In this document: positions 21,801 through 57,006 of the stretch, one piece after another | Numbering within the stretch: position 1 is the stretch's first letter | Layout of the letters: each line of letters starts with the position of its first letter | Assembly (NCBI GenBank): GCA_040285745.1 | Contig: JAUFOR010000008.1 | Span: 992,001-1,056,000 of the forward strand | DNA from: Barthelona sp. PCE | Lineage: Eukaryota | Length of the DNA stretch: 64,000 nucleotides | Reading direction: 5' to 3' | The notes under the pieces: generated by a model | Seen by the model: the letters and a program-made list of their open reading frames with translations, nothing else | Database searches by the model: none | Told to the model about the DNA's origin: nothing | Position numbers and translations under genes: made by a program

Positions 21801-23673
21801 TTATTGTAACAACTCTGCTTTGATATCAGAAATGTATCCGATTCATAGTATGAACAAGGGTAAGTATCTGCCTGAAAGGAATGTGTCAATTATGTTACAA
21901 TCACTGTTAGTATTAATAGTAAGCTGTCTTTTCTTGTGTCTGTTTGGTGCTTTTGGAGTAACCAAAGCTTTAGATGATCCCATTGGGTCGGTTGACGGGG
22001 TTTGGTCAACTGTCTTAATAATTTTTCTAATATTCACTTTTCTGTCAGTGCCTATTACGATAGCTATCTCTGGTTGTGATTGTGATTCAAATTATTCTAG
22101 AAAGGAAAATATTATGATATTTTATGTTCTTTTCCTTTTTTTGTCAAGTATCATAGCTTCTTTTTATTTTTTTAACAATTCCAAAAATATAACATTTTTT
22201 GCCAAATTCTTGCTGTCCATATTGGGAATTTTGTTGATTTCAAAAGTATATGATGTGATATGTCGATTTCTAGATAATGTTAGTGTTGAAAAAAGAGTGT
22301 TGTGGATCAATTATACTGATTTTTTGCTATTTATTGTTTTTTTTATTATTATCAATGTTAAATTTTTTTCTTCAATTTGGAAACTATTTTGTATTATAAT
22401 TTTTTCAATATTTATACTGTATTTTATTCATTATATTAGGAAAGAAATAGATATTGTTGTTGAGCATATCTATATGGGTATAGTATTCATTATTATGATA
22501 GCAACCCTATCTACAGCTAATATACCGATCATTATCCATATCATTGTTATTATATTTACATTTTTTACATTACTACGTTGGGATGCTGTTCTAGAAATTG
22601 GATTTTTCTCATTCTTTACTTCATCAACAATTATATTAACTTATACAACTGCATTATTATTTGTGTTGCTTGGTATAAATGGTTTGGAGTTTGATGACGG
22701 TTATGAAAAGTTTTTATACTTCCTGCCTGGTTTTTTACTGGAGTTGATACAAGAATCTTTTGAAAGCACAGTTTCTGATTCATTTTACAAAACAAACTAT
22801 TGGTTTGTTGCCGTGTTTGGCGTGTTTTTCGGTATTTTAGGACTGGGTTCCAACTCTTTTGAAAACTTCAACTATTATTGGTGGTTTTGCTTACCAGCAG
22901 CTATTATTCTAACAGTTTTTTACATTTCTCTTTCTTTTGGCTCTGAAAAATTGGCGTTTAAACTAACTAAACTTGATGAAACCCTTGTTGAAAATCACTT
23001 CTTTCACACACTGTTTGATGATGACTACAAATGTTTAAAACTTAATAAGAATCACCAAAATCTGTTCACTCCATCGCACAGATCAGATGAGTTTCAGTTA
23101 ATCAAAGAAAAAAGGAAAGAGGAAGGTATTTATGAAAGAAATCTTATTTTGACTCCAATCCTTAAGATATTCGGGTTTAAACATGATAAATGTATAGTTC
23201 AGCAGTACATTGATCCAGTGAAATCGTTGGAAGCTGATGATCCGGATAGTGAAGTTTTTGCACATGACTTTTTTGGACTACATTCTATTTTTGAGCGTAT
23301 TGAGGAAGCAATATTTAAAAACAAAGATGATGTAGAGGTATTTTTATACATACATATCAATAGCGACGAAAATTTGGAAAAATTGAAAGCGAAGCTTTCA
23401 ATTTTCTTTTGTGCCTGCCAGTTGGATGATACTGAAGGTTTCGAAGGGGTCAACAAAAGCAATAGACGTTTTGAGATTGAGCATTCAAACTTTAATGGTC
23501 TTCAACTCAACAGCATGTTCAGTTTTTTGGTAACTTGGTCAAAGGAAAAAATATTTATACCATTTCACATATATATTGTTGGCAGTGATTTCAAAACCAG
23601 TACTTTCAATCAGAAAATGGAAGATTTTAATTCTAGAGAGTTTTATGGTGCACAAGCTGTTAAACAATTATAG
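18850..23673 (+). CDS. Large hypothetical protein with a C-terminal multi-pass membrane region
   Basis: 1607-aa uninterrupted ORF: about 1010-aa soluble N-terminus, a block of about 12 hydrophobic segments, and a soluble tail. Confidence 0.75.
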   Translation: MDVNFLRNNASKATENLNQLFERRVEELGLKSDDSLIFDSWVLLDLVTNSIIFMQKDQNFLTTDPFQSFKLEFNTTDTHSMYLNVRLPPGKHLFDFQIVFDNLIERNENPGLSFLPPSLPESTTPWIRHYFPNLMKGEWEKILMPDENNLFYFKDFYMVDDFAFIVKYFWLLFGHQDKVLRLIEKVLKYNTFLFDGVVEKLFNAFKHLDIESNGYTYNHVAIMRKLQNYDDRKSVSSVHFSNDTKHKLFIAKCICSISSLQDDKYFDWLNHEILRNIEGNSYNRNFLLEHCFQSLILDYYNNDKILDIFTEFLDSDKQGYWKSVQMDGYKPFIDLTAHKSHWKFFFDRFSSNDLFNCMHKQYILPILKYFFGSQDDRDPHFYFVSDRSYDESRIQTWTEGNEHTVLLGFDGKYFVTKTFSLGEIGEYELIPGVNENLSKCLTNVEEVSNITQREKEEVTWFFFHSFGQFSRTVENGERFRQFLEKLSEQGVNLSEYRAALKEELKYFASATFIFALRYFFEHDYTDEGTWKMDSFDARTELYCFVGSEDHVFLLNVLNPDIVNEPFKGCYQKCLDFFKRYFHDLKMHFNVLVSLSRRVILGIVNIFDKKKDSGQFIKSLNNFGRLSYDEWKFILSITHNYIVLKLAISISKFNVDPDGLLSYQQLSFLRTIWVSFYGGRYVKDLIEYCNSLIYQLFCSSHGRKIITDKGVGAGESSINDLVMMYSVENEDTVDKYKNERIKILKKLDLISIEEFTMGQNSFSVKCDKIPIMMPENVAKTVYRDYILAQLYHYSQSSIIIQGLCCSENNEFDFSIEFDVNTEAFRIVSSVYDLLSFINIRTTKDTNVLHEFFELHAYIENILLYVESLKHHDCFFSIINCKNDDDKYPLTKFVEENNYDILCKLTVCFTPDFFKTLDKKERLTFAIVAKKAGVWDNLSDEVKSCKCDDTNTSSHITCFADCAYTAEHLSNLKYIQNNIETNGDLIYCNNSALISEMYPIHSMNKGKYLPERNVSIMLQSLLVLIVSCLFLCLFGAFGVTKALDDPIGSVDGVWSTVLIIFLIFTFLSVPITIAISGCDCDSNYSRKENIMIFYVLFLFLSSIIASFYFFNNSKNITFFAKFLLSILGILLISKVYDVICRFLDNVSVEKRVLWINYTDFLLFIVFFIIINVKFFSSIWKLFCIIIFSIFILYFIHYIRKEIDIVVEHIYMGIVFIIMIATLSTANIPIIIHIIVIIFTFFTLLRWDAVLEIGFFSFFTSSTIILTYTTALLFVLLGINGLEFDDGYEKFLYFLPGFLLELIQESFESTVSDSFYKTNYWFVAVFGVFFGILGLGSNSFENFNYYWWFCLPAAIILTVFYISLSFGSEKLAFKLTKLDETLVENHFFHTLFDDDYKCLKLNKNHQNLFTPSHRSDEFQLIKEKRKEEGIYERNLILTPILKIFGFKHDKCIVQQYIDPVKSLEADDPDSEVFAHDFFGLHSIFERIEEAIFKNKDDVEVFLYIHINSDENLEKLKAKLSIFFCACQLDDTEGFEGVNKSNRRFEIEHSNFNGLQLNSMFSFLVTWSKEKIFIPFHIYIVGSDFKTSTFNQKMEDFNSREFYGAQAVKQL

Positions 23674-28149: not shown

Positions 28150-29802
28150 TTAAATATTGAGATAGTTGGTTAACCATGCAAGGAAGCGTTCGATGTCTTT
28201 GAAATCTGACAGATAACCTACACTGACACGAACAACACCATCAACAACCTGACTTTCAGCAAATCTGAAATACCTGTAATCGAGGCTTGCCTCACCACAA
28301 CCACAGTCGGGCACACCATACTGCTGCGGGTCCCACCTGTCGCTGGAGTCGATCCAGTACTTACGGAAAAGACAGAACTTCGTCTGTCCTTTGCAACCAT
28401 TCATATAAACTCTAGCAATTTCTTCCTGCTCCACTGCAAAGGCACGGCGCATGATGTTACACCCACCATAGTTGCAAAGACAGCCGGACCTCACCTTGAT
28501 GTTGTGCATTGCTGCGTCTTCCGCCACCTCTCTGCTATTTCGTATTGATCCATCAGAATTACGAACGATGAAGCTTACAACAGGACCAACCTCATCAAAC
28601 AGCTCATCTGCGTCGACGGGCTCGATGTCCAGTACATACAGGGCCTTCATTCCGGTCGAGTACTGGTATCTCTCAAGATGAGAACGTAAATAATTTGACA
28701 GAGCCTGTGTGTGCTTGTGAATGGCATCAAAAGTAAGCTTCCTCAGGTGGGAGAGACCAATGCGGATGGCTGGCATGAGGTCAAAGGCGGGTGTACCGTC
28801 TTGAAAACGGTTTGAAAAGTGGTTACGGAAGATCACATCCGTTGTGTTACTCCAAATAACCGTTCCACCGCCTGAATATGTCTTGACGAGCGTTGGTATC
28901 GCCTCCTTGCGAACAACCAGAGCTCCAGAACCAGTTGGATTACCGAACATTTTATAAAAAGACATGGGGAAGAAATCGCCTATCACATTGCTCAAATCCA
29001 ATGGAGAGTGTGGAACTGACGCAGCAACGTCCACCAACACGTACCAGTTGTCGGGGAGTTCCTCTTTGAGACGCTTTAAACGATCTACCGAGCTTCTGAA
29101 CCCGTTAAAGTTCGACTCAAGCGGGAATGCCAACAAATTCAAGGTACCAGACGGCTGGTTGGCGGATATGTCACGCGCTGTGTTCACAATTGTGGTTATC
29201 TGGGGTTCTACGACGGTTGATGATTTTGCATATACACGGATTGCAGTTACTGAGATGTGGTTGTTTTCAGTGTACATAAACACACCATTCTCACCAAAGT
29301 CAAACGATTCACCTACCAGTTTGATCGATGCAGTAGCACCAGAGGTGAAAACCACAGAGTATGCTGAGTAATCAGTGTTAAAAGCACTCAATAATTGATG
29401 AGCAGTCTTTGGGATCTCAGATGAGAACCCTGAGTGCGGATTGCCCATTAGATTGGAGAGCAAATACTCACCGTATTCATCTATTTGTGACTTAGCAGCT
29501 AAAGAACTACCTGTGAAATCTAAATACACAGGTGCTTTATGTCCGCTCAACATGGGGAACTGGAAATCTCTCAATCCATCAATATAAAGACGTGTACCGC
29601 TTGAATGAGCGGGATAACCATAGTCAGGGTATTTCTTAACGAAATGAGTGTATGAAGCATCGTTCTTCGGCGGAATGGCCACAAGTGCAAACGCCAGGGC
29701 ACATACTAAGCATAATAACGAAAGAATGACATAGCTTCCCCATCGCTTTCCCCAAAAAGACCTTTTCCTCATATAAAACCCAGTTTCAAGGTTCCTTGAC
29801 AT
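28150..29802 (-). CDS. Molybdenum cofactor sulfurase-like PLP enzyme (class V aminotransferase fold) with N-terminal membrane anchor and no MOSC domain
   Basis: YLDFTGS, GNPHS, FTSGATA, SFYKMFG (PLP Lys), GGGTV, FQDGT, RSGCLCN and VRVSVG motifs; TM segment YVILSLLCLVCALAFALVAI; ATG at 29802. Confidence 0.85.
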   Translation of the reverse strand: MSRNLETGFYMRKRSFWGKRWGSYVILSLLCLVCALAFALVAIPPKNDASYTHFVKKYPDYGYPAHSSGTRLYIDGLRDFQFPMLSGHKAPVYLDFTGSSLAAKSQIDEYGEYLLSNLMGNPHSGFSSEIPKTAHQLLSAFNTDYSAYSVVFTSGATASIKLVGESFDFGENGVFMYTENNHISVTAIRVYAKSSTVVEPQITTIVNTARDISANQPSGTLNLLAFPLESNFNGFRSSVDRLKRLKEELPDNWYVLVDVAASVPHSPLDLSNVIGDFFPMSFYKMFGNPTGSGALVVRKEAIPTLVKTYSGGGTVIWSNTTDVIFRNHFSNRFQDGTPAFDLMPAIRIGLSHLRKLTFDAIHKHTQALSNYLRSHLERYQYSTGMKALYVLDIEPVDADELFDEVGPVVSFIVRNSDGSIRNSREVAEDAAMHNIKVRSGCLCNYGGCNIMRRAFAVEQEEIARVYMNGCKGQTKFCLFRKYWIDSSDRWDPQQYGVPDCGCGEASLDYRYFRFAESQVVDGVVRVSVGYLSDFKDIERFLAWLTNYLNI

Positions 29803-36393: not shown

Positions 36394-39300
36394 ATGTCTT
36401 TAAGTCTTTCCATGGAAAAATTTGAATTTGACACGTCCAAAAACTGCGTGTCAACCGTTGAGAAACGTGAAAGGGATCCAAAAGTTAACATTTCCTTGAA
36501 AACCGTCAGTGGTTCCTCGGTCTGTGCAACTGCCTCTGCTGCACTTGCTGACACGAGTGGTATCTTCCCTATTACCCCATCTACGCCTATTGCCCAGGAG
36601 GTTGACGAACTTGCAGCTACAGGCTACAAAAACTATGCCAACCAAAGCATCAAGGTTGTCACCCTTGAAAGTGAAGCTGGAGCTGCAGGTACTATCGAAG
36701 GTTTAGCCTCAACAGGTACAATCGCAACCACTTTTACCGCATCACAGGGTCTCTTCTTGATGATCCCCGTTCTGTACAAGCTCAGTGGTAACCTTTTACC
36801 CGCTGTTATTAATGTTGCTAACAGAACGATTGCCACAAACAGTCTTTCAATTTTCGGTGATCTTTCCGATATCACCGCTTGTCTGCACAGTGGTGTCTCC
36901 ATCCTTGTCGCTGATTCGGTTCAGGCCACCCACCACAACACTTTGATCGCCTTCATGTCATCACTTGTTGCTCGCCTTCCTTTCATCAACACCTTCGATG
37001 GTTTCCGTATCTCTCACGCCAACACGACCATTGAGATGCTGTCTCGTGAGGATATGATCTCTCTCTATGATGACGAGATCATGCCTTTCATCGACGCCCA
37101 CCGTATGCGTGGTCTTGACCCCAGCAAGCCCGTCATGCAGGGTACTGCCATGACTGGTGATACTTTCTTCCAAGTCACCGAAGCCGCCAACAAGTTCCAC
37201 GCTGCTGTCCCCGGTATCGTTGAGTACATGTATGAGAAGCTCGCCACAAAGACTGGTATCCGCTACCACATTTTTGATTACTTGGGTCACCCCGCCGCCA
37301 CCGACGTCATGATCATCATGGGCTCCGGTGCCAAGGTTGCTGAGGAGGCCGCCGCCTGGCTCATTGAGAACGAAGACCGCAAGGTTGGTGTTGTCAACGT
37401 TCGTCTCTGGCGCCCATTCTCCGTCTCTCACTTCCTCAACGCCCTCCCCGAGTCCGTTGAGCGCATCGTCGTCATGGATCGTGTCCGCGACGCCAACGGT
37501 GTCGGTGAGCCCCTCTTCGTCGACGTTGCCACTGCCCTCAAGATGGGCAACCGCAACAACATCAAGGTCGTCGGCGGTCGTTTCGGTCTTTCCTCGGCCG
37601 ACTTCACCCCTATGCACGTCCGCTCCGCCTTCGACAACCTCGCAGCCGAGACCCCCATCCACAGTTTCACAGTTGGTATCATCGACGATGTCACCCACCT
37701 CTCTTTGCCCAAGTGCCCCATCACTTTCGATACTCTCCCCAAGGATTGCATCCAGGCCGTTTTCTACGGTCTCGGTGGTGATGGTACCGTTGGTGCCAAC
37801 AAGCAGGCCGTCAAGATCGCTGCCCAGTACGGTGGTTTCTACTCACAGGGTTACTACCAGTATGATTCCATCAAGGCCGGTTCATTTACTTGTTCACACG
37901 TCCGTTTGTCCAAGCAGCAAATTTTCTCCCCTTACTACGTCAGTCTTGCTAACTACGTCGCTTGTCATCAGCCTTCTTACGTTAACCGTTTCGCTCTTCT
38001 GCGTAACGCTCGCCAGAACGCCGACTTCGTCCTTAACTGTTCATGGACCACTCTTGACGAGTTCAACCTCCACGTCCCCGCCGCTATCCGTCACGCCATC
38101 GCTGAGAAGAACGTTAACCTATACGTCATCGACGCCACCAAGATTGCTGATGAGGCTGGCATGCCTGGTCGTATCAACATGGCCATGCAGACCGTCTTCT
38201 TCAAGATTGCCGCCATTTTCCCCGATATGAATGAGGCTATCTCTCACCTGAAGGAGTTCATTAACAAGACCTATGGTAAGAAGGGCCGCGAGATTGTTGA
38301 GAAGAACTTCGCCATGGTCGACATGACCAATGAAGAAGGTCGTATCATCAAGCTCGACTATCCCCGTGATGAGTGGCTCAGCCTTTCTGGCAGCCAGCTC
38401 ACCAACAAGCACGTTGTCATGGAGAAGACCGAGTTCATCGAGGATATCTTTGATCCCTTCTTCCGTAACGAAGGTACTGATATCCCTGTTTCCAAGTTCA
38501 CACCTGGAGGTCTCCTCGAGATGAACACCACTGCATATTCCAAGCGTGGTATTGCCATTCGCGTTCCCCAGTGGGATGCTGAGAAGTGTGTCCAGTGTAA
38601 CTCTTGTGCTTTCGTCTGCCCTCACTCTGTTATCCGTCCCTTCTACCTCAACGAAGAGCAGGAGCAGAACAAGCCCAGCAGTATGAACACCCTTGATGCC
38701 AAGGGTAAGGGTATGGACAACCTCAAGTTCAGAATCCAAATCTCTCCTCTCGATTGTACCGGTTGCGGTTCTTGTGCTGAGGTGTGTAAGAAGGTCGTCA
38801 AGGCCGACGCACTTTCTATGGAGCCCTTCGAGGAGGAGGTTGAACAGGAGAGCGATCACTGGCGTTATGTTAAGTCTTCCGTTCCTCCCAAGCCCGAGCT
38901 CATGCTCCCCAAGAGCCCTAAGGGTGTCACTCTCCAAGAGTACGCTTACCAATTCTCTGGCGCTTGCGCTGGCTGTGGTGAGGCTCCTTACTGGAAGCTT
39001 ATGCTTCAAATGGCCCCCTATTCCATTGTTGCCCAGGCTACTGGTTGTGGTACCATTATCTCTTCATCATATCCTCTCAATGCTCACTGTTGCAACGAGA
39101 AGGGCGAGGGTCCTGCCTGGGCCAACTCTCTCTTCGAGAACAACGCAGAGTTCGGTTATGGTATGATAATCGCCACCAAGCACCGTCGTGAAGGTCTTAT
39201 GATGAGGGTCCAGGAGGCTGTCCTGAACATCTCCATGCCCGACGCCATGCTTGAGGCATTCAACGAGTGGCTTTCCATCTGGAACAACCGTAAGGCTACT

Positions 39301-41916
39301 GAAAAGATGTATGAGAAGGTTCTTTACGCACTCGATCACTACCGTGATGTCGTCAACGCCAACCCCGCTCTTAAATCTATTGATATTGATCGTGGCCTCT
39401 TCCGCAAGCCCGTTCATCTCATCATGGGTGGTGATGGTTGGGCCTACGATATTGGTTACGGTGGCCTTGACCAAGTTCTCGCTTCAGGTGAGGACTTTGT
39501 TGTTCTGGTTGCTGATACCGAGGTTTACTCAAACACTGGTGGCCAAATGTCCAAGGCTTCACATCTTTCTGCTCAGCACAAGTTCTCTTATGGTGGTAAG
39601 CCCACCTTCAAGAAGGAACTCGGCCTCATGGCTATGCAGTACGGTAACGTTTATGTTGCTTACTGTGCTATGGGTGCTTCTCCCGCTCAGTTCGTCCGCC
39701 GTGCTCAGGAGGCCCTCGATTTCGAAGGTCCTTCTCTCCTTGTCTGCTCATCTCCTTGTATTGAGTGGAACATCAAGGGCGGTATGACACAATCACAGCT
39801 CATTCAGAAGCTTGCCGTCGATACTGGTTTCTGGATTAACTGGTGCTATAACCCAACCCTTGAGGACAAGAACAAGAACCCCTTCAAGATTGATTCCAAG
39901 GCTCCTTCCAAGGACCCTGAACTCTTCCTTCAAGCTAACGGCCGTTTCCGTAACCTCGCACTCAAATTCCCTGAACAAGCTGCTGAATTGCAAGGTCAGC
40001 TTAAGACTTACCTCAAGAAGCGTTACAAGCGCTACACCAAGCTTATCAAGGCTTATGAGCCTGATGAGGAAGAGGTTGAGGTCGCCGCTCCCAAGGTAAC
40101 CATTGCCTACGCTTCTGCCACTGGTACTACCGAAGGTTATGCCCGTACTCTTGCTGAAGAGCTCAAGGCTGATATTGTCGAGTACAGCGCTCTCAACATT
40201 GCTAAGCTTAAGGCTATCAAGCACCCTGTTATTTTCCTGAACTCATCATACACTGTCCGTACTCCTGGAGATATTCCTGAGAACGGCGCTGCTCTCTTTG
40301 ACGAGCTCCAAGCTTGTGAGACCGAGGGTGCTCTCAGCGGACTCAAGTTCGCCCTGTACGGTTTCGGCGACGAGGCTTATGAGACTTTCCAACGCGCTCC
40401 TGGAATCATGTGGGATCGCCTCACTGCTCTTGGTGCTACTAACATCATGCCCCGTGGTATCGGCAACGAGACCGACGGCTACGATGAGACATTCAACGCT
40501 TTCAAGACTTCCCTCATGGCTGCTCTTGGTAGTGCTCCTGCCCCTGTTGCTAAACCCGTCAAGAAGGCTCCTGTTAAAAAGGCCCCCGTTAAGAAGGTCG
40601 CTGTCCAGAAGCCTGTCGTCACTGCTGCACCCAAGGCTGAAATCGCCGTCAACGATGCACCTGTTGCTGAGATTGAAGGCATCGAAGAGTGGGTCGCCAA
40701 GGGCGTTCCCCGCAACGAGGTCTTCGACACTGATGTCGTCTGGACCGGTGTCGTCGACTGGAATGTTCGTTCTTTCCACGGTTACGAGGCACGCAACGGT
40801 TCTGCATACAACGCTTTCCTTGTTCGTGATGAGCAGTCCTTCCTGGTTGATGCCGTAAAGGCTTCATTTGCTGATGAATTCATCAAGCGCATTGAAACCG
40901 CCATGCCACTTGAGGAGATCAAGTACATCATCATGAACCACGCTGAGCCCGATCACACATCTGCTCTTCCTGAACTCATGAAGAAGGCTCCTCACCTCAA
41001 GATCATTACCAACAGACCTTGCAAGATGGCTTTGAAGAGACTATTTGCTCATCACGGTTCAAATGATTGGGAGTACGAGCTTGTTAAGGATGGTGAGACC
41101 CGTACCTTCGGTCGTCACACCGTCAAGTTCATTACAACTCCTCTTCTTCACTGGCCTGATAGCATGATGACCTTTATGGAGACCACCGGTATCCTCTTCT
41201 CTATGGATGCCTTTGGCCAACACAGAGCTTGTTCTGCTCGTATTGATGACCAATTGGGTGCTCCTTCTATGGATGAGCACATTATGGATCAGAAGCTCTA
41301 CTGGGCCAACATTCTCATGTGCTTCGAGGCCCAGGCCCGTTCCGCAATGAAGAAGATTGCTCCCATCATGTCTGATGTCAAGATCATTGCTACAGCACAT
41401 GGTGTTGCAGTTCGTAAGTACATTCCCATTGTCATGGATCTCTACGACAAGTGGATCAACCACGGAACCGATAAGAAGGTTCTCATTGTCTACGATACCA
41501 TGTGGCAGGGTGCCCGTAGAATGGCAGAGGCCATTGCTAAGGGTGTCAATGAGTCTGGTTGCTACGCTGTTCTTATGAACGCTGCCTCCAGCCACTACAC
41601 CTACATTGCCACTGAGGCACTTGAGGCCGGAGCCATTGCACTTGGCACATCTCGCCTTAACGGTGGTATTATGCCCACAATGGCTGCTGCTTCCGAGTAT
41701 CTTGGCGGTCTTCAGCGCAACTTCAAGCGTAAGGGTATCGCTTTCAGCACTTTCGGATGGCAACCCAAGCCTGACCATCTGGAGCGTATGGCCGAAATGG
41801 CAAAGATCGATCTTGTCGATACGCTAATGGTTCGCCTTCATCCTGATGATTCTAACCTTGAGGCATGCTTCGAGGCCGGTGTCAAGCTTGCCCAGATCGC
41901 CCTTGAGCAGCAGTAA
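36394..41916 (+). CDS. Fusion protein: pyruvate:ferredoxin oxidoreductase + CPR-type flavodoxin + flavodiiron protein
   Basis: PFO aa 1-~1225 (FPITPST, ESEAGAAG, GLGGDGTVGANK, CVQCNSCAFVCP, CTGCGSCAEVC, GACAGCGE, GGDGWAYDIG, EVYSNTGGQ). Flavodoxin aa ~1234-1379 (YASATGTTEGYA, FALYGFGDEAY). A/P/K linker. FDP aa ~1440-1840 (NHAEPDH, LHWPD, SMDAFG, TAHG, YDTMWQG). One uninterrupted ORF with ribosomal-protein-like codon bias. Confidence 0.93.
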   Translation: MSLSLSMEKFEFDTSKNCVSTVEKRERDPKVNISLKTVSGSSVCATASAALADTSGIFPITPSTPIAQEVDELAATGYKNYANQSIKVVTLESEAGAAGTIEGLASTGTIATTFTASQGLFLMIPVLYKLSGNLLPAVINVANRTIATNSLSIFGDLSDITACLHSGVSILVADSVQATHHNTLIAFMSSLVARLPFINTFDGFRISHANTTIEMLSREDMISLYDDEIMPFIDAHRMRGLDPSKPVMQGTAMTGDTFFQVTEAANKFHAAVPGIVEYMYEKLATKTGIRYHIFDYLGHPAATDVMIIMGSGAKVAEEAAAWLIENEDRKVGVVNVRLWRPFSVSHFLNALPESVERIVVMDRVRDANGVGEPLFVDVATALKMGNRNNIKVVGGRFGLSSADFTPMHVRSAFDNLAAETPIHSFTVGIIDDVTHLSLPKCPITFDTLPKDCIQAVFYGLGGDGTVGANKQAVKIAAQYGGFYSQGYYQYDSIKAGSFTCSHVRLSKQQIFSPYYVSLANYVACHQPSYVNRFALLRNARQNADFVLNCSWTTLDEFNLHVPAAIRHAIAEKNVNLYVIDATKIADEAGMPGRINMAMQTVFFKIAAIFPDMNEAISHLKEFINKTYGKKGREIVEKNFAMVDMTNEEGRIIKLDYPRDEWLSLSGSQLTNKHVVMEKTEFIEDIFDPFFRNEGTDIPVSKFTPGGLLEMNTTAYSKRGIAIRVPQWDAEKCVQCNSCAFVCPHSVIRPFYLNEEQEQNKPSSMNTLDAKGKGMDNLKFRIQISPLDCTGCGSCAEVCKKVVKADALSMEPFEEEVEQESDHWRYVKSSVPPKPELMLPKSPKGVTLQEYAYQFSGACAGCGEAPYWKLMLQMAPYSIVAQATGCGTIISSSYPLNAHCCNEKGEGPAWANSLFENNAEFGYGMIIATKHRREGLMMRVQEAVLNISMPDAMLEAFNEWLSIWNNRKATEKMYEKVLYALDHYRDVVNANPALKSIDIDRGLFRKPVHLIMGGDGWAYDIGYGGLDQVLASGEDFVVLVADTEVYSNTGGQMSKASHLSAQHKFSYGGKPTFKKELGLMAMQYGNVYVAYCAMGASPAQFVRRAQEALDFEGPSLLVCSSPCIEWNIKGGMTQSQLIQKLAVDTGFWINWCYNPTLEDKNKNPFKIDSKAPSKDPELFLQANGRFRNLALKFPEQAAELQGQLKTYLKKRYKRYTKLIKAYEPDEEEVEVAAPKVTIAYASATGTTEGYARTLAEELKADIVEYSALNIAKLKAIKHPVIFLNSSYTVRTPGDIPENGAALFDELQACETEGALSGLKFALYGFGDEAYETFQRAPGIMWDRLTALGATNIMPRGIGNETDGYDETFNAFKTSLMAALGSAPAPVAKPVKKAPVKKAPVKKVAVQKPVVTAAPKAEIAVNDAPVAEIEGIEEWVAKGVPRNEVFDTDVVWTGVVDWNVRSFHGYEARNGSAYNAFLVRDEQSFLVDAVKASFADEFIKRIETAMPLEEIKYIIMNHAEPDHTSALPELMKKAPHLKIITNRPCKMALKRLFAHHGSNDWEYELVKDGETRTFGRHTVKFITTPLLHWPDSMMTFMETTGILFSMDAFGQHRACSARIDDQLGAPSMDEHIMDQKLYWANILMCFEAQARSAMKKIAPIMSDVKIIATAHGVAVRKYIPIVMDLYDKWINHGTDKKVLIVYDTMWQGARRMAEAIAKGVNESGCYAVLMNAASSHYTYIATEALEAGAIALGTSRLNGGIMPTMAAASEYLGGLQRNFKRKGIAFSTFGWQPKPDHLERMAEMAKIDLVDTLMVRLHPDDSNLEACFEAGVKLAQIALEQQ
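40555..40620 (+). repeat. Imperfect 15-nt coding tandem repeat (KKAPV) in the flavodoxin-FDP linker
   Basis: aagaaggctcctgtt aaaaaggcccccgtt aagaaggtcgctgtc cagaagcctgtcgtc, encoding PVKKAPVKKAPVKKVAVQKPVV. Confidence 0.7.
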
Positions 41917-42046: not shown

Positions 42047-42088
42047 GCTGTCCCCCGGTATCGTTGAGTACATGTACGAGAAGCTCGC
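42047..42088 (+). repeat. 42-bp dispersed copy of PFO coding sequence (matches 37204-37244)
   Basis: gctgtcccccggtatcgttgagtacatgtacgagaagctcgc vs gctgtccccggtatcgttgagtacatgtatgagaagctcgc: one extra C and one C/T mismatch. Confidence 0.9.
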
Positions 42089-52839: not shown

Positions 52840-55800
52840 TTACCTGCGTTTTCTATTTCTTGAGGATCTACTTTCAAGTATATCATTCACGCTCATCCTT
52901 TTCTTCTTCGATCGAGTTCTTGATGATGCTCGCGATGTGGAGTGACCTGGAAGTGTTCCCATTGTCAGACCATTATCTAAAGTAACAACCTCCTTCTTGA
53001 AAGGTACTTTTTGCTGTGAGAATCCCATGCTAGTTTGAGGACGAGGTGGGAATAAACTAACTGATACAGCTGACTTATCGTATCTCCTCGAAGTCGACGA
53101 CAATGAATCAAGTGTTGCTGAAAGTTTCTGTTCCAAAATCCTGTTACCATACTTGTATGACATATCAGGGGTATCAGGTCTTTCAATCTTGTTAAATACA
53201 CTCAAACTTGCATCTGCTGTTTTTGGACGACGTGGGTAACTGTCATCAAAAGCAGTTGGAATGTCGTCTATCCTCAGTCGTGGCAGATCAACCTCCTGTA
53301 CATCCAATGTTAAGGGTTTTATACGTTGACGCTCAATTCGACGTATATCACTGATACCAACATTAGAAATTCCTCTAGTTGCTGCCATGTAAAGCTTTCT
53401 ACTCTTATCCAACTCCTTCAGCGTCTCCTTGCGTTTCTCCTCATCAAAGAACTCGTCCTGAAGAACAGGGTGCTGTCGGAGGTACCTACGTAAATATCCA
53501 GACAATAGATCAATGTTGCGATTGTTTGAATCGTTATGGCTCTGCGATACTGTTGCCAATAAAGCAAGAGCACGATTCTTGAACGTCGGGTCCTGTTTAA
53601 CAAAGAAAACAACCGTATTCACCATTTCACCCAGAGCATCCTTGTCGATGTCTCCTTCAACAAAGAAAGCGTATGATTCCAAGAGCACCGTTTCAATAGC
53701 ACCATCCTCAACGATAAACTGCTTGAACACACGGTAGTCGCTACAGACAAACTTGACAAGCTGCAATGACTGGGACCTTAACTCATTCCAAACTTCGTAA
53801 CACGTCGATTTCCTTGATACGTTGAGCACATCGTTGGTCTCTAGGACAATACACTTTGGGAGTGGTACCATGACCTTAGCAGGCTTGACTGAATCAAAGA
53901 ACCTGATGAAATCTATAAACTTATTTGATATCAGTCCTATAATACAATTTCTGCTGATATCTTGTGTAGAAAACATATTTAACATCTTAAACAATAAAAT
54001 ACATGTAAATTGCAGATAGTAGGGGATAGTTTTAGATTCCTTAAACGCACGAACGCATAAATTTAAAATTGGATTGATCAAATCAGTGACCAGTTTCGAG
54101 AAGACGTAAAAAAAATTGTTCACATGAAAGTCTATCGAAGAGGTCTTGATCATATTCCTGAATGAAATGTCCTTGAAGAAAAACAACAGATAACATGCAA
54201 CAATGAGCGGATAAGTTAAACTGTTGAATAGAGGTTTTGCAACAATCGTATTGAATGTTTCAGAGTCCAAAGCCGAATCAAAAACGCAAATGAAGTTGTT
54301 TAAATATGAGTGCAACGTGTCATCAATGAAATTTGTCTCAAACAACGCAACCAAGAAGTGGTATATCTGTGAATAATCAGCTGATAGCATCTTTTCACAA
54401 CACAAAACCAACATCTTCCACACAACACTAACGCGTTCAGTTGACATAGCTGTCAAAACCCAAAATTGATCTTCAGCCATGTCCTCATCATGAACATCGA
54501 TGATCTCCTTTGTACCAACACTCTTAACTGCGATCAATCGACGTGCCTCTGTCAACAACTCCGTTGACCTATCCGTGTCCAATAGGGTTGATTCGACGCT
54601 ACAACTGTTTAAATTACTAATCTTTCGATAATTGAGCGCAGTGCTACCTCCTCTGTTACGAATGATCCAGCTCTTTGTTCTTTTGAATTGGGAAGGAAGC
54701 TCGGTGAGAGGGACCTCCGGCTCGCTGGTATCGCTGGCCAGGCTGAGCACACTACTTTGACTTGCACGAAATCGCAGTCTCTTAGTCGCACGCGCCATCA
54801 CACTATTACAAAACAGCGTTGCGTTAACAACCTGTTTGAATTTGCTTTTCCCCTCTGTCATCGGCTGGTGCGGGGTAGGAACCCTCAGAAAATCTGGAAG
54901 AACTGACTTAAGTAAAGTCACAAATATAGGTGTGGGTTTTGGCGCCTTGTTCTGAAGCTTGAGCATGCCTGCCATGTTCGTGACGCTGTGCATACCTCCT
55001 GCTCTTATGTTACGCTTGTCGAGCACAGTGCTCTCCATACTGTACGACTTATTCAACAATGCGACAATAGTGCTACTATCCAAACGAGAGAAAACGTAGA
55101 CTAGGAAGTGCAGCATGCTCATAAGGAACTTTTGATTAATATCTTTTTTCTTCAGAAGCTCAACAAACCTTTCAACAGTTTTTTCCATCAACAACTTTGC
55201 ACCAGAACCGGATCCGCTCTCGGCAAAGAATTCAAGCGTCGCGGTAGTCGCAGGAAGCAAGTCAATGAGTTCGTGAAGGTGTTTGGCGTTCGGCATTACG
55301 ACATATGATGTCTTGTAAATGCTATACTCCAAATTCAACTTATCGAAAAGCCTAAAGACGTTGCCGTTCACATCTGAGTTCTCCTCCAACCGCTTGCATA
55401 TCATGCGTAAGATACGAACACTTCTTACGATCTGTCGCTTGAAATTATTGAATTCTGCTAATAAGGTCAAGGCATTGATGTACTCCGGCGTTACAAACGG
55501 TGATAAGAAGACAACACGGGCTGCGCTGTTAATGGTTGTGTGTGTTACACTCTTTGATATCATCCTTAAAACAACGTCGGACCATTTCTGGAACGAGGTC
55601 ATCTCCAAGTCATAGAAAACATTAACATTACTGTGTATGTCAATGTCGATGAACCCATCGTCGAGAAGAGTAAGACCACACGCTGCAAGAACAGCTTTGA
55701 GCCCCTTTTGGCTCAGTTGCAAATGCGTAATTGAACAAGAAAGCAAACGTTTAGTGTCGTACATTGCCAACAGCACAATGGCTCGAGATGGGTCCATGAA

Positions 55801-57006
55801 GCACAGCTGGGTGAACCTTTTCAACTGATCTTTGTAATTAAGAAAATGATTGACAATCTGTGAACTGATACTCTTCAAATTACACTTATCAAAGAAAATA
55901 ACTGTACTATACTTCTTCAAAAGCAGTCTCTTCTGCTTCTCTGTGATGCGTTTCTGTTGGGCTTTCCTCATTTCGTCTTGATACAATTCATAAAATACGC
56001 ATTTTTCCAAGAAAACATTGGAAATTGAGCCATTGAAAACGTCCGCTTCAATTAAAACGTCAATAAGGGCAATTAAGGAATTGATCTTTTCCAACCAATG
56101 ATCTTTCTTCATGTTCTCAGCAGATAATGCATCATTCAAGAGAGTTGAACAAAACCTGTTGAGCATATCCTTCACTTCGATCACCAAAACATCATTCACA
56201 CCATCAATTGAAAACAATGCAGTGAAATATGTGATGATAAGTGTTGAATCAACACAAAAACGCTGAAAATAACAAAGATTTTGTAACAATAACGAAATCA
56301 ACACTGTGTTCTCAAGCAAAGATGTCAGCAAAGATATATTCCTGATCGGATCAAGTAACAAGAACTCAAAAAATCCTAATGTAAAGACATTGGTGAATTT
56401 ATCAGCATCCCATTCGAATAGAAGTAGATTTTCGATTAAAAATGACAAACTTTCACTATTCTGTTCCTTGGTAATATACATCTGGGTGTCCTTGCTTAAC
56501 TTTTTATCTGAATTTATGAAAGAGAGAATATTATGATTGGAAAAACTATATTCAGGTAATATGAAAATTCGTTCTCTGTCAATAAAGACTCCCTGTGCTT
56601 GTAAAAATGCAATGATCCTGGACATAACAAGCCTGTAGTTGACGGCATTGCTGTGCAAATGAAACTCATGATGTTGATATGCAATAAAGATTTCAAAAAC
56701 GCTCCTGAAATCAAATTCAAAGAGACGTGGTTCGTCTGTAGGGTTGAATCTGCGTGTATCGAACACGGACAAACAAGACATGCATGAATTCATGAGTAGA
56801 ATAAATTTTTCATGCAATTGTTCCCGCTCGTCTTCTGAAGGTGTGTAATACTTTTCAAACGATTGGAAGACAACACATAGTCCATTGAGACCCATGAGCT
56901 CTTTGAGATCATCTTTGTTCAATTGTACAATGGATGATAGAGCAAATTGTAGGTTCTTTTCGCTTGTTTGCTTTAAACTTCGTAGTATTAATGGGACTTC
57001 TGTCAT
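52840..57006 (-). CDS. Large hypothetical alpha-helical (ARM/HEAT-like) protein with a disordered Ser/Arg-rich tail
   Basis: 1388-aa ORF, Leu-rich helical composition; tail contains RPKTA, RPDTP and RPQTS. Confidence 0.7.
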   Translation of the reverse strand: MTEVPLILRSLKQTSEKNLQFALSSIVQLNKDDLKELMGLNGLCVVFQSFEKYYTPSEDEREQLHEKFILLMNSCMSCLSVFDTRRFNPTDEPRLFEFDFRSVFEIFIAYQHHEFHLHSNAVNYRLVMSRIIAFLQAQGVFIDRERIFILPEYSFSNHNILSFINSDKKLSKDTQMYITKEQNSESLSFLIENLLLFEWDADKFTNVFTLGFFEFLLLDPIRNISLLTSLLENTVLISLLLQNLCYFQRFCVDSTLIITYFTALFSIDGVNDVLVIEVKDMLNRFCSTLLNDALSAENMKKDHWLEKINSLIALIDVLIEADVFNGSISNVFLEKCVFYELYQDEMRKAQQKRITEKQKRLLLKKYSTVIFFDKCNLKSISSQIVNHFLNYKDQLKRFTQLCFMDPSRAIVLLAMYDTKRLLSCSITHLQLSQKGLKAVLAACGLTLLDDGFIDIDIHSNVNVFYDLEMTSFQKWSDVVLRMISKSVTHTTINSAARVVFLSPFVTPEYINALTLLAEFNNFKRQIVRSVRILRMICKRLEENSDVNGNVFRLFDKLNLEYSIYKTSYVVMPNAKHLHELIDLLPATTATLEFFAESGSGSGAKLLMEKTVERFVELLKKKDINQKFLMSMLHFLVYVFSRLDSSTIVALLNKSYSMESTVLDKRNIRAGGMHSVTNMAGMLKLQNKAPKPTPIFVTLLKSVLPDFLRVPTPHQPMTEGKSKFKQVVNATLFCNSVMARATKRLRFRASQSSVLSLASDTSEPEVPLTELPSQFKRTKSWIIRNRGGSTALNYRKISNLNSCSVESTLLDTDRSTELLTEARRLIAVKSVGTKEIIDVHDEDMAEDQFWVLTAMSTERVSVVWKMLVLCCEKMLSADYSQIYHFLVALFETNFIDDTLHSYLNNFICVFDSALDSETFNTIVAKPLFNSLTYPLIVACYLLFFFKDISFRNMIKTSSIDFHVNNFFYVFSKLVTDLINPILNLCVRAFKESKTIPYYLQFTCILLFKMLNMFSTQDISRNCIIGLISNKFIDFIRFFDSVKPAKVMVPLPKCIVLETNDVLNVSRKSTCYEVWNELRSQSLQLVKFVCSDYRVFKQFIVEDGAIETVLLESYAFFVEGDIDKDALGEMVNTVVFFVKQDPTFKNRALALLATVSQSHNDSNNRNIDLLSGYLRRYLRQHPVLQDEFFDEEKRKETLKELDKSRKLYMAATRGISNVGISDIRRIERQRIKPLTLDVQEVDLPRLRIDDIPTAFDDSYPRRPKTADASLSVFNKIERPDTPDMSYKYGNRILEQKLSATLDSLSSTSRRYDKSAVSVSLFPPRPQTSMGFSQQKVPFKKEVVTLDNGLTMGTLPGHSTSRASSRTRSKKKRMSVNDILESRSSRNRKRR

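What the first reader, a model, noticed from the sequence alone, without database searches (positions are those of the whole stretch)
36394..41916. PFO-flavodoxin-flavodiiron triple fusion: candidate single-chain pyruvate:O2/NO oxidoreductase
Seen: one 1840-aa ORF with no stop or intron. It contains a full PFO (TPP-binding GDG...N, catalytic Glu in ESEAG, two ferredoxin-type CxxCxxCxxxC motifs, proximal-cluster Cys in CAGC/ATGC/SPC). Next is a CPR-type FMN domain (about 40093-40530), then a complete class A FDP (about 40711-41913) with all diiron ligands (H-x-E-x-D-H, LHWP, MDAFG, AHG) and its own flavodoxin. Codon bias resembles neighbouring RPL4, suggesting high expression. Established: PNO of Euglena/Cryptosporidium is PFO + FMN domain + FAD/NADP domain, and FDPs reduce O2 to water or NO to N2O, normally fed by rubredoxin/NADH reductases. 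Inference: the NADP module is replaced by a terminal oxidase, wiring TPP > 3x[4Fe-4S] > FMN > FMN > diiron. This would let acetyl-CoA production continue under microoxia while scavenging O2/NO beside an O2-labile enzyme. I am not aware of this architecture being described, but could not search.
Basis: partly seen in the sequence, partly recalled or inferred. Interest (0 to 1): 0.92.

Follow-up and report, generated by a model that had tools for sequence, protein, structure and literature searches.

The report
Pyruvate oxidoreductase fused to oxygen reductase
An anaerobic protist encodes one giant protein that joins a pyruvate-oxidising enzyme, a flavin shuttle domain and an oxygen-reducing flavodiiron enzyme, so it can probably burn off oxygen directly with electrons from pyruvate; the same fusion lies unrecognised in a few other anaerobic eukaryotes.

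Summary
Window 36394-41916 (+) is one uninterrupted 1840-aa ORF with three modules: a complete PFOR (residues 36-1218), a CPR-type FMN domain (1230-1373) and a complete class-A flavodiiron core (1445-1836). An Ala/Pro/Lys/Val-rich linker, predicted disordered, joins the last two. All cofactor ligands are intact. Codon bias is strong and uniform across the modules. The neighbours are ordinary eukaryotic genes.

The architecture is rare but not unique. Five other full-length PFO-FDP fusions turned up:
- a complete Barthelona sp. PAP020 transcript;
- a Pelomyxa schiedti protein deposited as "pyruvate NADP oxidoreductase";
- three metagenomic proteins, two of which lack the middle FMN domain.

No FAD/NADP module is present, so it is not a PNO. 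I found no paper describing the fusion. One paper (PMC6397501) proposes the same PFO > flavodoxin > FDP > O2 chain, with separate proteins, in Spironucleus salmonicida.

Best reading (about 0.6): a self-sufficient pyruvate:O2 oxidoreductase. Activity, junction-spanning RNA or protein in this organism, O2-versus-NO preference and descent from a PNO are all untested. FDP trees allow either two independent fusions or one fusion followed by fission.

This is a new variant of known kinds (multidomain FDPs, PFO fusions).

The parts
36394..41916 (+). Whole coding sequence of the triple fusion (1840 aa plus a TAA stop)
   Evidence: One open frame, standard code, no stop and no unaligned insert other than the linkers.
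36394..36498 (+). N-terminal extension, residues 1-35, ahead of the first residue that aligns to solved PFORs
   Evidence: It is absent from, or much shorter in, the 5 fused homologues. It contains acidic residues. No targeting prediction was run.
36499..40047 (+). PFOR module, residues 36-1218 (domains I-VI). It ends where the Moorella PFOR ends, so it has no Desulfovibrio-type C-terminal domain VII.
   Evidence: Pfam; 6cin E=0; 1b0p 1.3e-300; residue alignments.
38566..38793 (+). Ferredoxin-like domain carrying two [4Fe-4S] motifs (C732/735/738/742 and C788/791/794/798)
   Evidence: All eight Cys are invariant in 6 of 6 fused proteins.
39430..39534 (+). TPP/Mg-binding GDG...N stretch (G1013-N1047)
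   Evidence: it aligns to the same stretch of 6cin and 1b0p, differing in a few residues. Its core residues (G1013, D1014, G1015, D1041, T1042, E1043, N1047) are invariant.
40081..40512 (+). CPR-type FMN (flavodoxin) domain, residues 1230-1373
   Evidence: Flavodoxin_1, 6.5e-28; CPR FMN domains about 2e-11; alpha/beta fold in the model, pLDDT mostly 50-86.
40513..40725 (+). Linker, residues 1374-1444, rich in Ala/Val/Lys/Pro. Residues 1380-1422 are predicted disordered. It contains a 15-nt tandem repeat (40555-40597, 2.9 copies) encoding the KKAPV repeats.
   Evidence: composition: A15 V13 K10 P9 of 70; pLDDT below 50, no secondary structure; tandem repeat.
40726..41901 (+). Class-A flavodiiron core, residues 1445-1836. 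The diiron metallo-beta-lactamase domain spans about 1473-1670 and its own flavodoxin domain about 1693-1839.
   Evidence: 2q9u 7.8e-77. Ligands H1516, E1518, D1520, H1521, H1586, D1605 and H1669 are invariant; pLDDT mostly 75-97.

Best explanation
The gene encodes a self-sufficient, soluble pyruvate:oxygen oxidoreductase.

Proposed mechanism (inferred, not measured):
1. The PFOR module oxidatively decarboxylates pyruvate with CoA on TPP, giving acetyl-CoA and CO2.
2. It passes single electrons along its three [4Fe-4S] clusters to the surface of the ferredoxin-like domain.
3. Instead of a free ferredoxin or flavodoxin, the covalently tethered CPR-type FMN domain picks the electrons up. It swings on a disordered linker of roughly 45-70 residues.
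4. It delivers them to the FMN of the flavodiiron core, which reduces O2 to water at the diiron site.

The net reaction would be 2 pyruvate + 2 CoA + O2 > 2 acetyl-CoA + 2 CO2 + 2 H2O.

The fusion would keep acetyl-CoA production, and hence substrate-level ATP, running under micro-oxia. It would also remove O2 next to an O2-labile enzyme. PFOR and FDP are each homodimers, so a dimer of the fusion is the likely working unit.

Shown here: the domain content, the intact ligands, the recurrence of the fusion and the disordered linker. Inferred: every electron-transfer step, the substrate and the oligomeric state.
For: 1. Complete modules in one frame. Residue-level matches to solved PFORs and FDPs.
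2. All Fe-S Cys, TPP-motif and diiron ligands are invariant in 6 of 6 fused proteins despite 40-47% overall identity. This points to purifying selection on all three activities.
3. The fusion recurs. Among the best 120 rows listed (7340 hits among 7997 scored candidates), the query and 5 others carry PFO plus ODP/FDP domains; the other 114 are plain PFORs. The 5 are P0122, a complete-ORF transcript of Barthelona sp. PAP020; P0123, Pelomyxa schiedti KAH3763500.1; and P0124, P0125 and P0126 from metagenomes. A transcript carrying all three modules shows that one mRNA encodes them in a relative.
4. Two of the five (P0125, P0126) join PFO to FDP without the FMN domain. The constant pairing is therefore PFO with FDP.
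5. Other anaerobic protists fuse the FDP core to its presumed donor: Pygsuia has FDP plus CPR (flavodoxin and FAD domains), Cantina has 2Fe-2S ferredoxin plus FDP, and Stygiella has FDP-ferredoxin (PMC4989108 passages).
6. PMC6397501 (passages) independently proposes PFO > CPR-N-terminal-type flavodoxin > FDP > O2 in S. salmonicida. It quotes potentials of -500, -280 and +163 mV, all downhill.
7. The linker is low-complexity and predicted disordered, while both flanking domains fold.
8. The nearest solved FDP is the O2-scavenging Giardia enzyme. Second-sphere K1489 matches Giardia K58. W1704 is aromatic like Giardia Y267, not Ser as in the NO-selective E. coli enzyme (residue roles from PMC13133992 passages).
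9. Codon bias is second only to RPL4 and is uniform across modules, with ENC 36.6, 37.5 and 37.9. This fits one long-resident, highly expressed gene.
Against: - No activity, RNA or protein data exist for this organism. The only public run holding any of the stretch covers small pieces and neither junction.
- The selectivity residues are weak predictors. Swapping them did not change selectivity in E. coli FDP (PMC13133992). Moorella FDP (PDB 1ycf), titled a nitric oxide reductase, also has Trp at the W1704 position.
- Two fused homologues dispense with the FMN domain, so its role as an obligate relay is not established.
- The fusion may be cleaved after translation.
- The PFO surface cluster could still reduce free ferredoxin, making the FDP a side branch rather than the main sink.
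- Homologue sampling is thin: 6 full-length proteins.
Confidence: 0.6

Rival explanations
1. Same architecture and wiring, but the physiological substrate is nitric oxide. The protein would be a pyruvate:NO oxidoreductase making N2O, for nitrosative-stress defence.
For: FDPs as a family reduce O2 and/or NO with identical ligands (PMC13133992 abstract passage). E. coli and Moorella NO reductases score almost as well as the Giardia enzyme (about 1e-70 against 1e-75). Trp at position 1704 is shared with the Moorella enzyme.
Against: The characterised protist FDPs named in the papers I read are O2 reductases: Giardia, Trichomonas, Entamoeba and Histomonas (passages in PMC12528894, PMC6856725, PMC13133992). 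K1489 matches the O2-selective enzymes. The relatives with a fused gene whose habit the papers I read state are free-living or grown in oxygen-poor culture (Pelomyxa: title of PMC8887013; Barthelona: PMC7542792 passage), and nothing read here gives them a stated NO source.
Confidence: 0.1
2. The fusion is mainly a guardian. The PFO module still hands most electrons to free ferredoxin or hydrogenase. The tethered FMN-FDP arm only bleeds off a small share to keep the immediate surroundings of the Fe-S clusters free of O2, or works with other donors. It would then not be a bulk terminal oxidase.
For: The PFO module lacks the Desulfovibrio-type C-terminal domain; its alignment ends at 6cin residue 1169 of 1171. 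My recollection, not checked here, is that this domain shields the clusters. BaSk metamonads keep several PFO and hydrogenase copies (PMC11316075 passage), so plain fermentation persists beside the fusion.
Against: Strong codon bias suggests an abundant enzyme rather than a minor safeguard. A tethered acceptor at high local concentration should outcompete free carriers; this is inference.
Confidence: 0.15
3. The diiron module is a sensor, not a catalyst. Like ODP-type oxygen-binding diiron proteins, it would report O2 and switch the PFO module off or on.
For: The Pfam family that matches is named ODP (PF19583).
Against: The match extends over the whole two-domain FDP, including its own flavodoxin, and is far stronger to FDP enzymes (1e-75). 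A redox-active FMN relay between PFO and the diiron module makes sense for electron flow, not for sensing.
Confidence: 0.04
4. Artefact: two or three neighbouring genes were joined by a misassembly or a sequencing error at a junction, or the polypeptide is cleaved into separate PFO, flavodoxin and FDP proteins.
For: No read, cDNA or peptide evidence spans the junctions in this organism. The linkers are low-complexity and one holds a 15-nt tandem repeat, the kind of place where assemblies slip.
Against: The frame stays open for 5.5 kb. Codon use is uniform across modules. The same order and the same PFO end-point (...YEP) are seen in 5 independent sequences, including a complete transcript. The contig is 2.17 Mb long and the flanking genes are ordinary eukaryotic genes.
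Confidence: 0.04

Closest known systems
Pyruvate:NADP+ oxidoreductase (PNO) of Euglena, Cryptosporidium and other eukaryotes
   Same: A full PFO is followed directly by a CPR-type FMN domain on one chain, so the enzyme needs no free ferredoxin (PMC6732389 and PMC6856725 passages).
   Different: PNO continues with FAD- and NADP-binding domains and makes NADPH. Here those domains are absent and a flavodiiron O2/NO reductase follows instead. The Pelomyxa homologue was deposited and discussed as PNO, but its Pfam content shows PFO + flavodoxin + FDP and no FAD_binding_1 or NAD_binding_1 hit.
Proposed PFO > flavodoxin (FLD) > FDP oxygen-clearing route of Spironucleus salmonicida (PMC6397501)
   Same: The same three components in the same order, including a flavodoxin homologous to the N-terminal part of CPR. 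The same purpose is proposed (passages).
   Different: There the three are separate gene products and the route is a hypothesis drawn from expression data. Here they are one polypeptide, which acts as 'Rosetta stone' support for that route.
Multidomain flavodiiron proteins, classes B-H, e.g. the class F FDP-rubredoxin-NROR of Trichomonas vaginalis, Histomonas and Clostridioides difficile
   Same: An FDP core is fused to its own electron-supply chain, giving a self-sufficient soluble terminal oxidase (PMC12528894 passages; PMC9364112 title and abstract start).
   Different: In the class F enzyme described in those passages the extra domains follow the core, and they draw on NAD(P)H through rubredoxin or flavin reductase modules. 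Here the extra modules precede the core, the donor is a 2-oxoacid oxidoreductase with TPP and three Fe-S clusters, and the reductant is pyruvate. That no described class contains a PFO is my recollection plus the searches listed under Tried and rejected.
FDP-donor fusions of other anaerobic protists: Stygiella FDP-ferredoxin, Cantina ferredoxin-FDP, Pygsuia FDP-CPR
   Same: The FDP is tied to a one-electron carrier domain. In Pygsuia this is a CPR-type FMN domain 26-34% identical to those of the PFO fusions (Stygiella in PMC4989108).
   Different: None of them includes the primary dehydrogenase (PFO). Pygsuia draws on NADPH through an FAD domain.
BOOR, butyryl-CoA:oxygen oxidoreductase of Fusobacterium nucleatum
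   Same: A catabolic acyl-CoA-level oxidoreductase is coupled directly to an FDP, so a fermentation intermediate reduces O2 to water. It has no NO reductase activity (PMC12288474 passages).
   Different: BOOR is a non-covalent complex of two bacterial gene products and uses butyryl-CoA with flavins and rubredoxin. It is not a single eukaryotic chain using pyruvate, TPP and Fe-S clusters.

Membership tests
Single-chain homodimeric pyruvate:ferredoxin (flavodoxin) oxidoreductase (PFOR/PFO) | Domains I, II, III, EKR/IV, V (ferredoxin-like) and VI in this order on one chain | tested here: met
   Pfam order POR_N, PFOR_II, POR, EKR, Fer4. End-to-end match to 6cin (4-1169 of 1171) and 1b0p. PF02775 (the TPP C-terminal domain) was not listed for this protein, but the stretch aligns to solved PFORs with only a few residue differences.
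Single-chain homodimeric pyruvate:ferredoxin (flavodoxin) oxidoreductase (PFOR/PFO) | Twelve Cys ligands for three [4Fe-4S] clusters, the TPP/Mg motif and the conserved Glu of the SEAG motif | tested here: met
   (aligned to the same motifs in 6cin and 1b0p). Invariant in 6 of 6 fused proteins. The structural roles of individual residues are recalled, not computed.
Single-chain homodimeric pyruvate:ferredoxin (flavodoxin) oxidoreductase (PFOR/PFO) | CoA-dependent oxidative decarboxylation of pyruvate | not testable with these tools
   Needs an enzyme assay. Specificity for pyruvate over other 2-oxoacids is assumed from the close match to pyruvate-specific enzymes.
Pyruvate:NADP+ oxidoreductase (PNO) | C-terminal FAD-binding and NADP(H)-binding domains after the FMN domain | tested here: not met
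   No FAD_binding_1, FAD_binding_6 or NAD_binding_1 hit at E up to 0.01. Residues 1445-1836 are an FDP core. The same holds for the Pelomyxa 'PNO'.
Flavodiiron protein, class A core | Metallo-beta-lactamase-like domain with the diiron ligands H-x-E-x-D-H, H, D, H | tested here: met
   H1516, E1518, D1520, H1521, H1586, D1605 and H1669 align to the ligands of 2q9u, 4d02-type and 1ycf chains. They are invariant.
Flavodiiron protein, class A core | C-terminal flavodoxin domain binding FMN, directly after the diiron domain | tested here: met
   Second Flavodoxin_1 stretch. The alignment runs to residue 403 of 414 of 2q9u. The model shows an alpha/beta fold with pLDDT 75-97. FMN binding itself was not tested.
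Flavodiiron protein, class A core | Head-to-tail homodimer bringing the FMN of one chain next to the diiron site of the other | not tested
   Not modelled as a question of its own. The one complex job gave no verdict and is reported only under Tried and rejected.
Flavodiiron proteins of the described multidomain classes (B-H) | Extra rubredoxin, NAD(P)H:rubredoxin or flavin oxidoreductase, or related modules attached to the core | tested here: not met
   No rubredoxin, Pyr_redox, Flavin_Reduct or FAD/NAD domain. The extra modules are a PFO and a CPR-type FMN domain on the N-terminal side. The class definitions come from passages of PMC12528894 and from recollection.
CPR/CysJ-type FMN domain | Flavodoxin fold most similar to the FMN domain of NADPH-cytochrome P450 reductase, with the phosphate-binding T/S-x-T-G-x-T loop | tested here: met
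   Best solved matches for residues 1230-1373 are CPR FMN domains, 2e-11 to 1e-9. The SATGTTE loop is read directly from the sequence. The significance of the loop is recalled.

The most novel reading that the evidence does not exclude
PFO-FDP fusions form an unrecognised class of flavodiiron enzyme: soluble, carrier-free pyruvate:O2 oxidoreductases. They would give amitochondriate eukaryotes a one-protein 'respiration' that still yields acetyl-CoA for ATP. The class would have been assembled at least twice, in BaSk-type metamonads and in a Pelomyxa-type lineage, with and without the FMN relay. Some proteins catalogued as PNO in anaerobic protists would in fact be this enzyme.
Probability: 0.5. 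Interest if true: 0.85.

Novelty: new variant of a known kind. Interest (0 to 1): 0.7.

Why it matters
How anaerobic protists without rubredoxin feed electrons to their flavodiiron oxygen scavengers is an open question. PMC6397501 offers only a hypothesis.

A natural fusion of PFO, a CPR-type flavodoxin and an FDP names the donor chain. It also supplies a single expressible protein with which to test that chain.

If active, it links the central ATP-yielding step of anaerobic pyruvate metabolism directly to O2 removal. That would help explain the micro-aerotolerance of 'anaerobes'.

It would also add a class to the FDP family, and it would correct at least one database and literature annotation (the Pelomyxa 'PNO').

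Finally, it would be a compact, self-sufficient water-forming oxidase driven by a very low-potential substrate, which may interest enzymologists.

Tried and rejected
1. The word-index protein search with residues 1225-1840 among long proteins found only the query. This was a false negative of the index: the whole-protein search found five fused homologues. One search is no evidence of uniqueness.
2. The same region among shorter proteins: the best 120 of 1425 hits are all 345-422 aa stand-alone FDPs at 34-42% identity. No FMN-FDP intermediate is listed.
3. No whole genome is held for the window. Other PFO, FDP, ferredoxin or rubredoxin genes of this organism could therefore not be counted.
4. 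Sequencing runs: no RNA holder is listed. One DNA(?) run holds a 0.06 share of the words. Its six small contig pieces cover parts of 6 of 30 bins and neither junction. This says nothing on expression or on the junctions.
5. ESM Atlas: no usable hit for the whole protein. The FMN part gave only generic flavodoxin clusters at 0.85-0.86, leads only.
6. Complex prediction (FMN domain against two copies of the FDP core): no verdict, score 0.02, alignments not used. It counts neither for nor against.
7. Metagenome contigs. With the protein as query there were no relatives. With alignment A3, 80 FDP loci were kept of 526 relatives. tblastn of the three modules against them found 0 of 80 fused to a PFO, 0 of 80 with the FMN domain, and 1 of 80 (L078) with a separate PFOR gene upstream. 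P0124, which comes from that source, was not among the 80, so the scan is not exhaustive.
8. The PFO tree (the 6 fused proteins plus 38 of the 114 unfused hits, every third one) puts the six on one side. All the other rows are prokaryote-type PFORs and long branches meet. With no unfused eukaryotic PFO or PNO in hand, it cannot test a single origin or descent from PNO.
9. Alternative code: table 6 lets frames run on, but the gene ends on TAA and the neighbours are intact under the standard code. Rejected.
10. Earlier findings of this scan: none for this genome or sequence.
11. Literature. Searches tried combinations of PFO/PFOR, flavodiiron/FDP, fusion/fused, PNO, Barthelona, 'PFO-FDP' and 'pyruvate oxygen oxidoreductase'. 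Passages read. No description of a PFO-FDP fusion was found. Supplements are closed. Supplementary Data 2 of PMC11316075 (PFO copies with 'ferredoxin or flavodoxin-like' domains), Table S2 of PMC8887013 and Fig. S6B of PMC7542792 may list these architectures.
Full report
**What is there**

Window 36394-41916 (+) is one open reading frame of 1840 codons with an ATG start and a TAA stop. It is read by the standard code and has no interruption.

Pfam finds the full PFOR domain series: POR_N 49-278, PFOR_II 304-395, POR 461-643, EKR 674-721 and a 4Fe-4S dicluster domain 731-799. It then finds Flavodoxin_1 at 1237-1370 (two stretches in all) and the ODP/flavodiiron metallo-beta-lactamase domain at 1473-1670. 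There is no FAD- or NAD(P)-binding domain.

Against solved structures:
- Residues 36-1218 match the Moorella PFOR 6cin end to end (4-1169 of 1171, E=0) and the Desulfovibrio enzyme (1b0p).
- Residues 1230-1373 match the FMN domains of NADPH-cytochrome P450 reductases (about 2e-11).
- Residues 1446-1836 match the Giardia flavodiiron protein 2q9u (15-403 of 414, 1.2e-75).

**Is it a real single gene?**

Direct read evidence could not be obtained. The only public run holding any of the stretch gives six small contig pieces that miss both junctions, and no RNA run is listed. The case therefore rests on four indirect lines.

1. Codon usage is strongly biased and uniform. ENC is 38.0 for the gene, with 36.6, 37.5 and 37.9 for the PFO, FMN and FDP parts. 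RPL4 next door has 32.5, and the other 26 ORFs measured have 38.9-58.2 (9 of the 37 ORFs were left out as truncated or overlapping).
2. The neighbours are ordinary eukaryotic nuclear genes: a protein with TFIIB repeats, RPL4, an XPD-type helicase, ERCC4, Rab, cyclin, VPS11, PIG-A, GET3/ArsA and others. Of 27 ORFs scanned, 15 have a Pfam family. The contig is 2.17 Mb long.
3. The segment between the FMN domain and the FDP core is an Ala/Val/Lys/Pro-rich stretch with KKAPV repeats encoded by a 15-nt tandem repeat. An AlphaFold2 model of residues 1222-1840 leaves 1380-1422 without structure (pLDDT below 50) while both flanking domains fold. That is what a designed-in flexible tether looks like, not an intergenic spacer read through.
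4. The same architecture exists elsewhere, as set out next.

**Relatives**

A first index search with the C-terminal third found only the query. That was a false negative.

The whole-protein search lists 120 rows. Six of them (the query and five others) carry PFO plus FDP domains; the other 114 are plain PFORs of about 1130-1220 aa. Pfam and the source names show two forms.
- **Type A**, PFO + CPR-type flavodoxin + FDP:
  - the window protein;
  - P0122, a complete-ORF transcript of Barthelona sp. PAP020 in EukProt (47% identical overall);
  - P0123, Pelomyxa schiedti KAH3763500.1, deposited as 'pyruvate NADP oxidoreductase';
  - P0124, from a JGI metagenome.
- **Type B**, PFO + about 100 residues + FDP with no middle flavodoxin: P0125 and P0126, from metagenomes.

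The exhaustive HMMER search of 1.84 billion representatives with residues 1150-1840 gave the same picture. Among its best 150 rows, only the query, P0122 and P0126 exceed 1500 aa. P0247 and P0257 begin inside or at a flavodoxin domain followed by an FDP, so they may be contig-truncated type A proteins.

In the six-protein alignment all twelve Fe-S cysteines, the core residues of the TPP motif, E94 and the seven diiron ligands are invariant. All six PFO modules end at the same ...YEP.

None of 80 metagenomic FDP loci is fused to a PFO. The fusion is thus rare, apparently confined to anaerobic eukaryotes as far as named sources go, and under selection in all three parts.

**Origin**

Two FDP trees were built: 69 rows with a quick search and 36 rows with a careful search.
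- The window and Barthelona FDP modules group together (98 UFBoot / 92 SH-aLRT).
- That pair groups with the stand-alone FDPs of two 'Eukaryota sp.' records, TZLM3-RCL and GEM-RC1 (99/99). I take these to be skoliomonads of the BaSk metamonad group treated in PMC11316075 (my identification, no tool result) and call them 'Skoliomonas' below.
- The Pelomyxa-type proteins, both type B proteins and P0247, P0257 and P0269 form a second clade (100/99).
- The backbone between the two clades is unresolved.

An AU test disfavours all fused-type modules forming one clade with the Skoliomonas FDPs outside (p=0.019; the group was named after seeing the tree, so this is weak). It does not reject one clade that includes them (p=0.28). 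So there were either two independent fusions, or one old fusion later split or lost in skoliomonads.

The PFO tree contains only prokaryote-type PFORs as outgroups and cannot decide.

The FMN domains of the two clades are 26-32% identical to each other. They are about as similar (26-34%) to the CPR FMN domain of a Pygsuia FDP-CPR fusion.

The tree placement suggests, as an inference only, that the window comes from a BaSk-type metamonad or a relative.

**How it most likely works**

PFORs hand electrons from TPP through three clusters to ferredoxin or flavodoxin. The database names say so, and PMC6397501 cites flavodoxin reduction by PFO. FDP cores take electrons at their FMN and reduce O2, or NO, at the diiron site.

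Placing a CPR-type FMN domain on a flexible tether between the two gives a plausible intramolecular chain: TPP > 3x[4Fe-4S] > FMN > FMN > Fe-Fe > O2.

PMC6397501 (passages) proposed exactly this chain with separate proteins for S. salmonicida. It quotes -500 mV for pyruvate/acetyl-CoA, -280 mV for flavodoxin and +163 mV for FDP. The fusion is Rosetta-stone support for that proposal.

Parallel fusions tie FDP cores to ferredoxin (Stygiella, PMC4989108; Cantina) or to a whole CPR (Pygsuia). In bacteria, BOOR couples butyryl-CoA oxidation to an FDP (PMC12288474).

O2 rather than NO is favoured for three reasons:
- the closest solved relative is the Giardia O2 scavenger;
- K1489 equals Giardia K58;
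- an aromatic residue (W1704) sits where Giardia has Y267 and the NO-selective E. coli enzyme has Ser (with residue roles from PMC13133992).

That paper also shows these residues do not switch selectivity in E. coli, and the Moorella enzyme has Trp there too. The preference is therefore only mildly supported.

Every electron-transfer step, the stoichiometry (2 pyruvate per O2), the dimeric state and a cytosolic location are inferences.

**Comparison with known families**

- It is a PFOR by every sequence criterion tested.
- It is not a PNO, because the FAD/NADP domains are absent.
- Its C-terminal part is a class A FDP core.
- It fits none of the described multidomain FDP classes. The class F enzyme described in PMC12528894 (passages) carries rubredoxin and NADH:rubredoxin oxidoreductase domains after the core; that no described class holds a PFO is partly my recollection.
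- The Pelomyxa paper counts its copy as 'one copy of PNO' and never mentions flavodiiron.
- The BaSk paper notes PFO copies with 'ferredoxin or flavodoxin-like' extra domains, with the details in a supplement I could not open.
- The barthelonid paper mentions three PFOs without domain detail.
- Eight literature searches found no description of a PFO-FDP fusion.

**Verdict**

This is a real and well-preserved gene. Its function is most probably a self-sufficient pyruvate:O2 oxidoreductase (confidence about 0.6).

It is rare but not unique: six full-length examples, one of them mis-named PNO. As far as I could search, it is not recognised in print.

It is a new variant of known kinds, not a categorically new system. 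Interest is high for specialists in anaerobic eukaryote metabolism and flavodiiron enzymology, and the idea is directly testable with one recombinant protein.

Noticed in passing
window 42047-42088 (intergenic, between the fusion gene and RPL4): A 42-nt stretch is 95% identical to nt 811-851 of the fusion's own PFO coding region (window 37204-37244; E 3e-14). It stands alone in AT-rich spacer. It could be a leftover of a duplication, a gene conversion or repair filler. Unexplained.
   Followed up: partly
window 40555-40597: A 15-nt tandem repeat (2.9 copies, 78% matches) encodes the KKAPV repeats of the linker. Such repeats could vary in copy number between strains and tune the tether length.
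   Followed up: no
P0125 and P0126 (metagenomic PFO-FDP fusions without the FMN domain): The roughly 100-residue segment between PFO and FDP holds a conserved ITSCIHCHPE motif, which is CxxCH-like. It may be a small metal- or haem-binding relay replacing the flavodoxin. Both proteins also carry Lys/Asp/Glu-rich low-complexity inserts.
   Followed up: no
P0123 (Pelomyxa schiedti KAH3763500.1): It was deposited as 'pyruvate NADP oxidoreductase' and counted as PNO in PMC8887013. Its Pfam content is PFO + flavodoxin + FDP, with no FAD or NADP domain. This looks like a mis-annotation.
   Followed up: yes
P0242 (Pygsuia biforma transcript, 1083 aa): An FDP core is followed by a CPR-type flavodoxin and an FAD_binding_1 domain. 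That would be a putative self-sufficient NADPH:O2 oxidoreductase of a kind different from class F FDPs. I did not check whether it is described.
   Followed up: no
L078 1064-4780 and 5030-6244 (metagenome contig): A 1238-aa PFOR gene is followed, after 250 nt and on the same strand, by a separate 404-aa FDP gene. It was the only such pairing among 80 FDP loci. It may be an unfused prokaryote-style counterpart, or chance.
   Followed up: partly
window 58076-59098 (+): A 340-aa calcineurin-like metallophosphoesterase has codon bias (ENC 38.9) nearly as strong as the fusion gene and RPL4. This suggests high expression.
   Followed up: no
window 28150-29802 (-): A 550-aa class-V aminotransferase (cysteine desulfurase/NifS-like fold, Aminotran_5 6e-30) with long extensions. 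It is of possible interest for Fe-S cluster supply in an organism with many Fe-S enzymes.
   Followed up: no
window 18850-23673 (+), 52840-57006 (-), 60366-63758 (-) and nine others: Of 27 neighbouring ORFs, 12 have no Pfam family at E up to 1e-4, including proteins of 1607, 1388 and 1130 aa. The lineage is poorly covered by family libraries.
   Followed up: no
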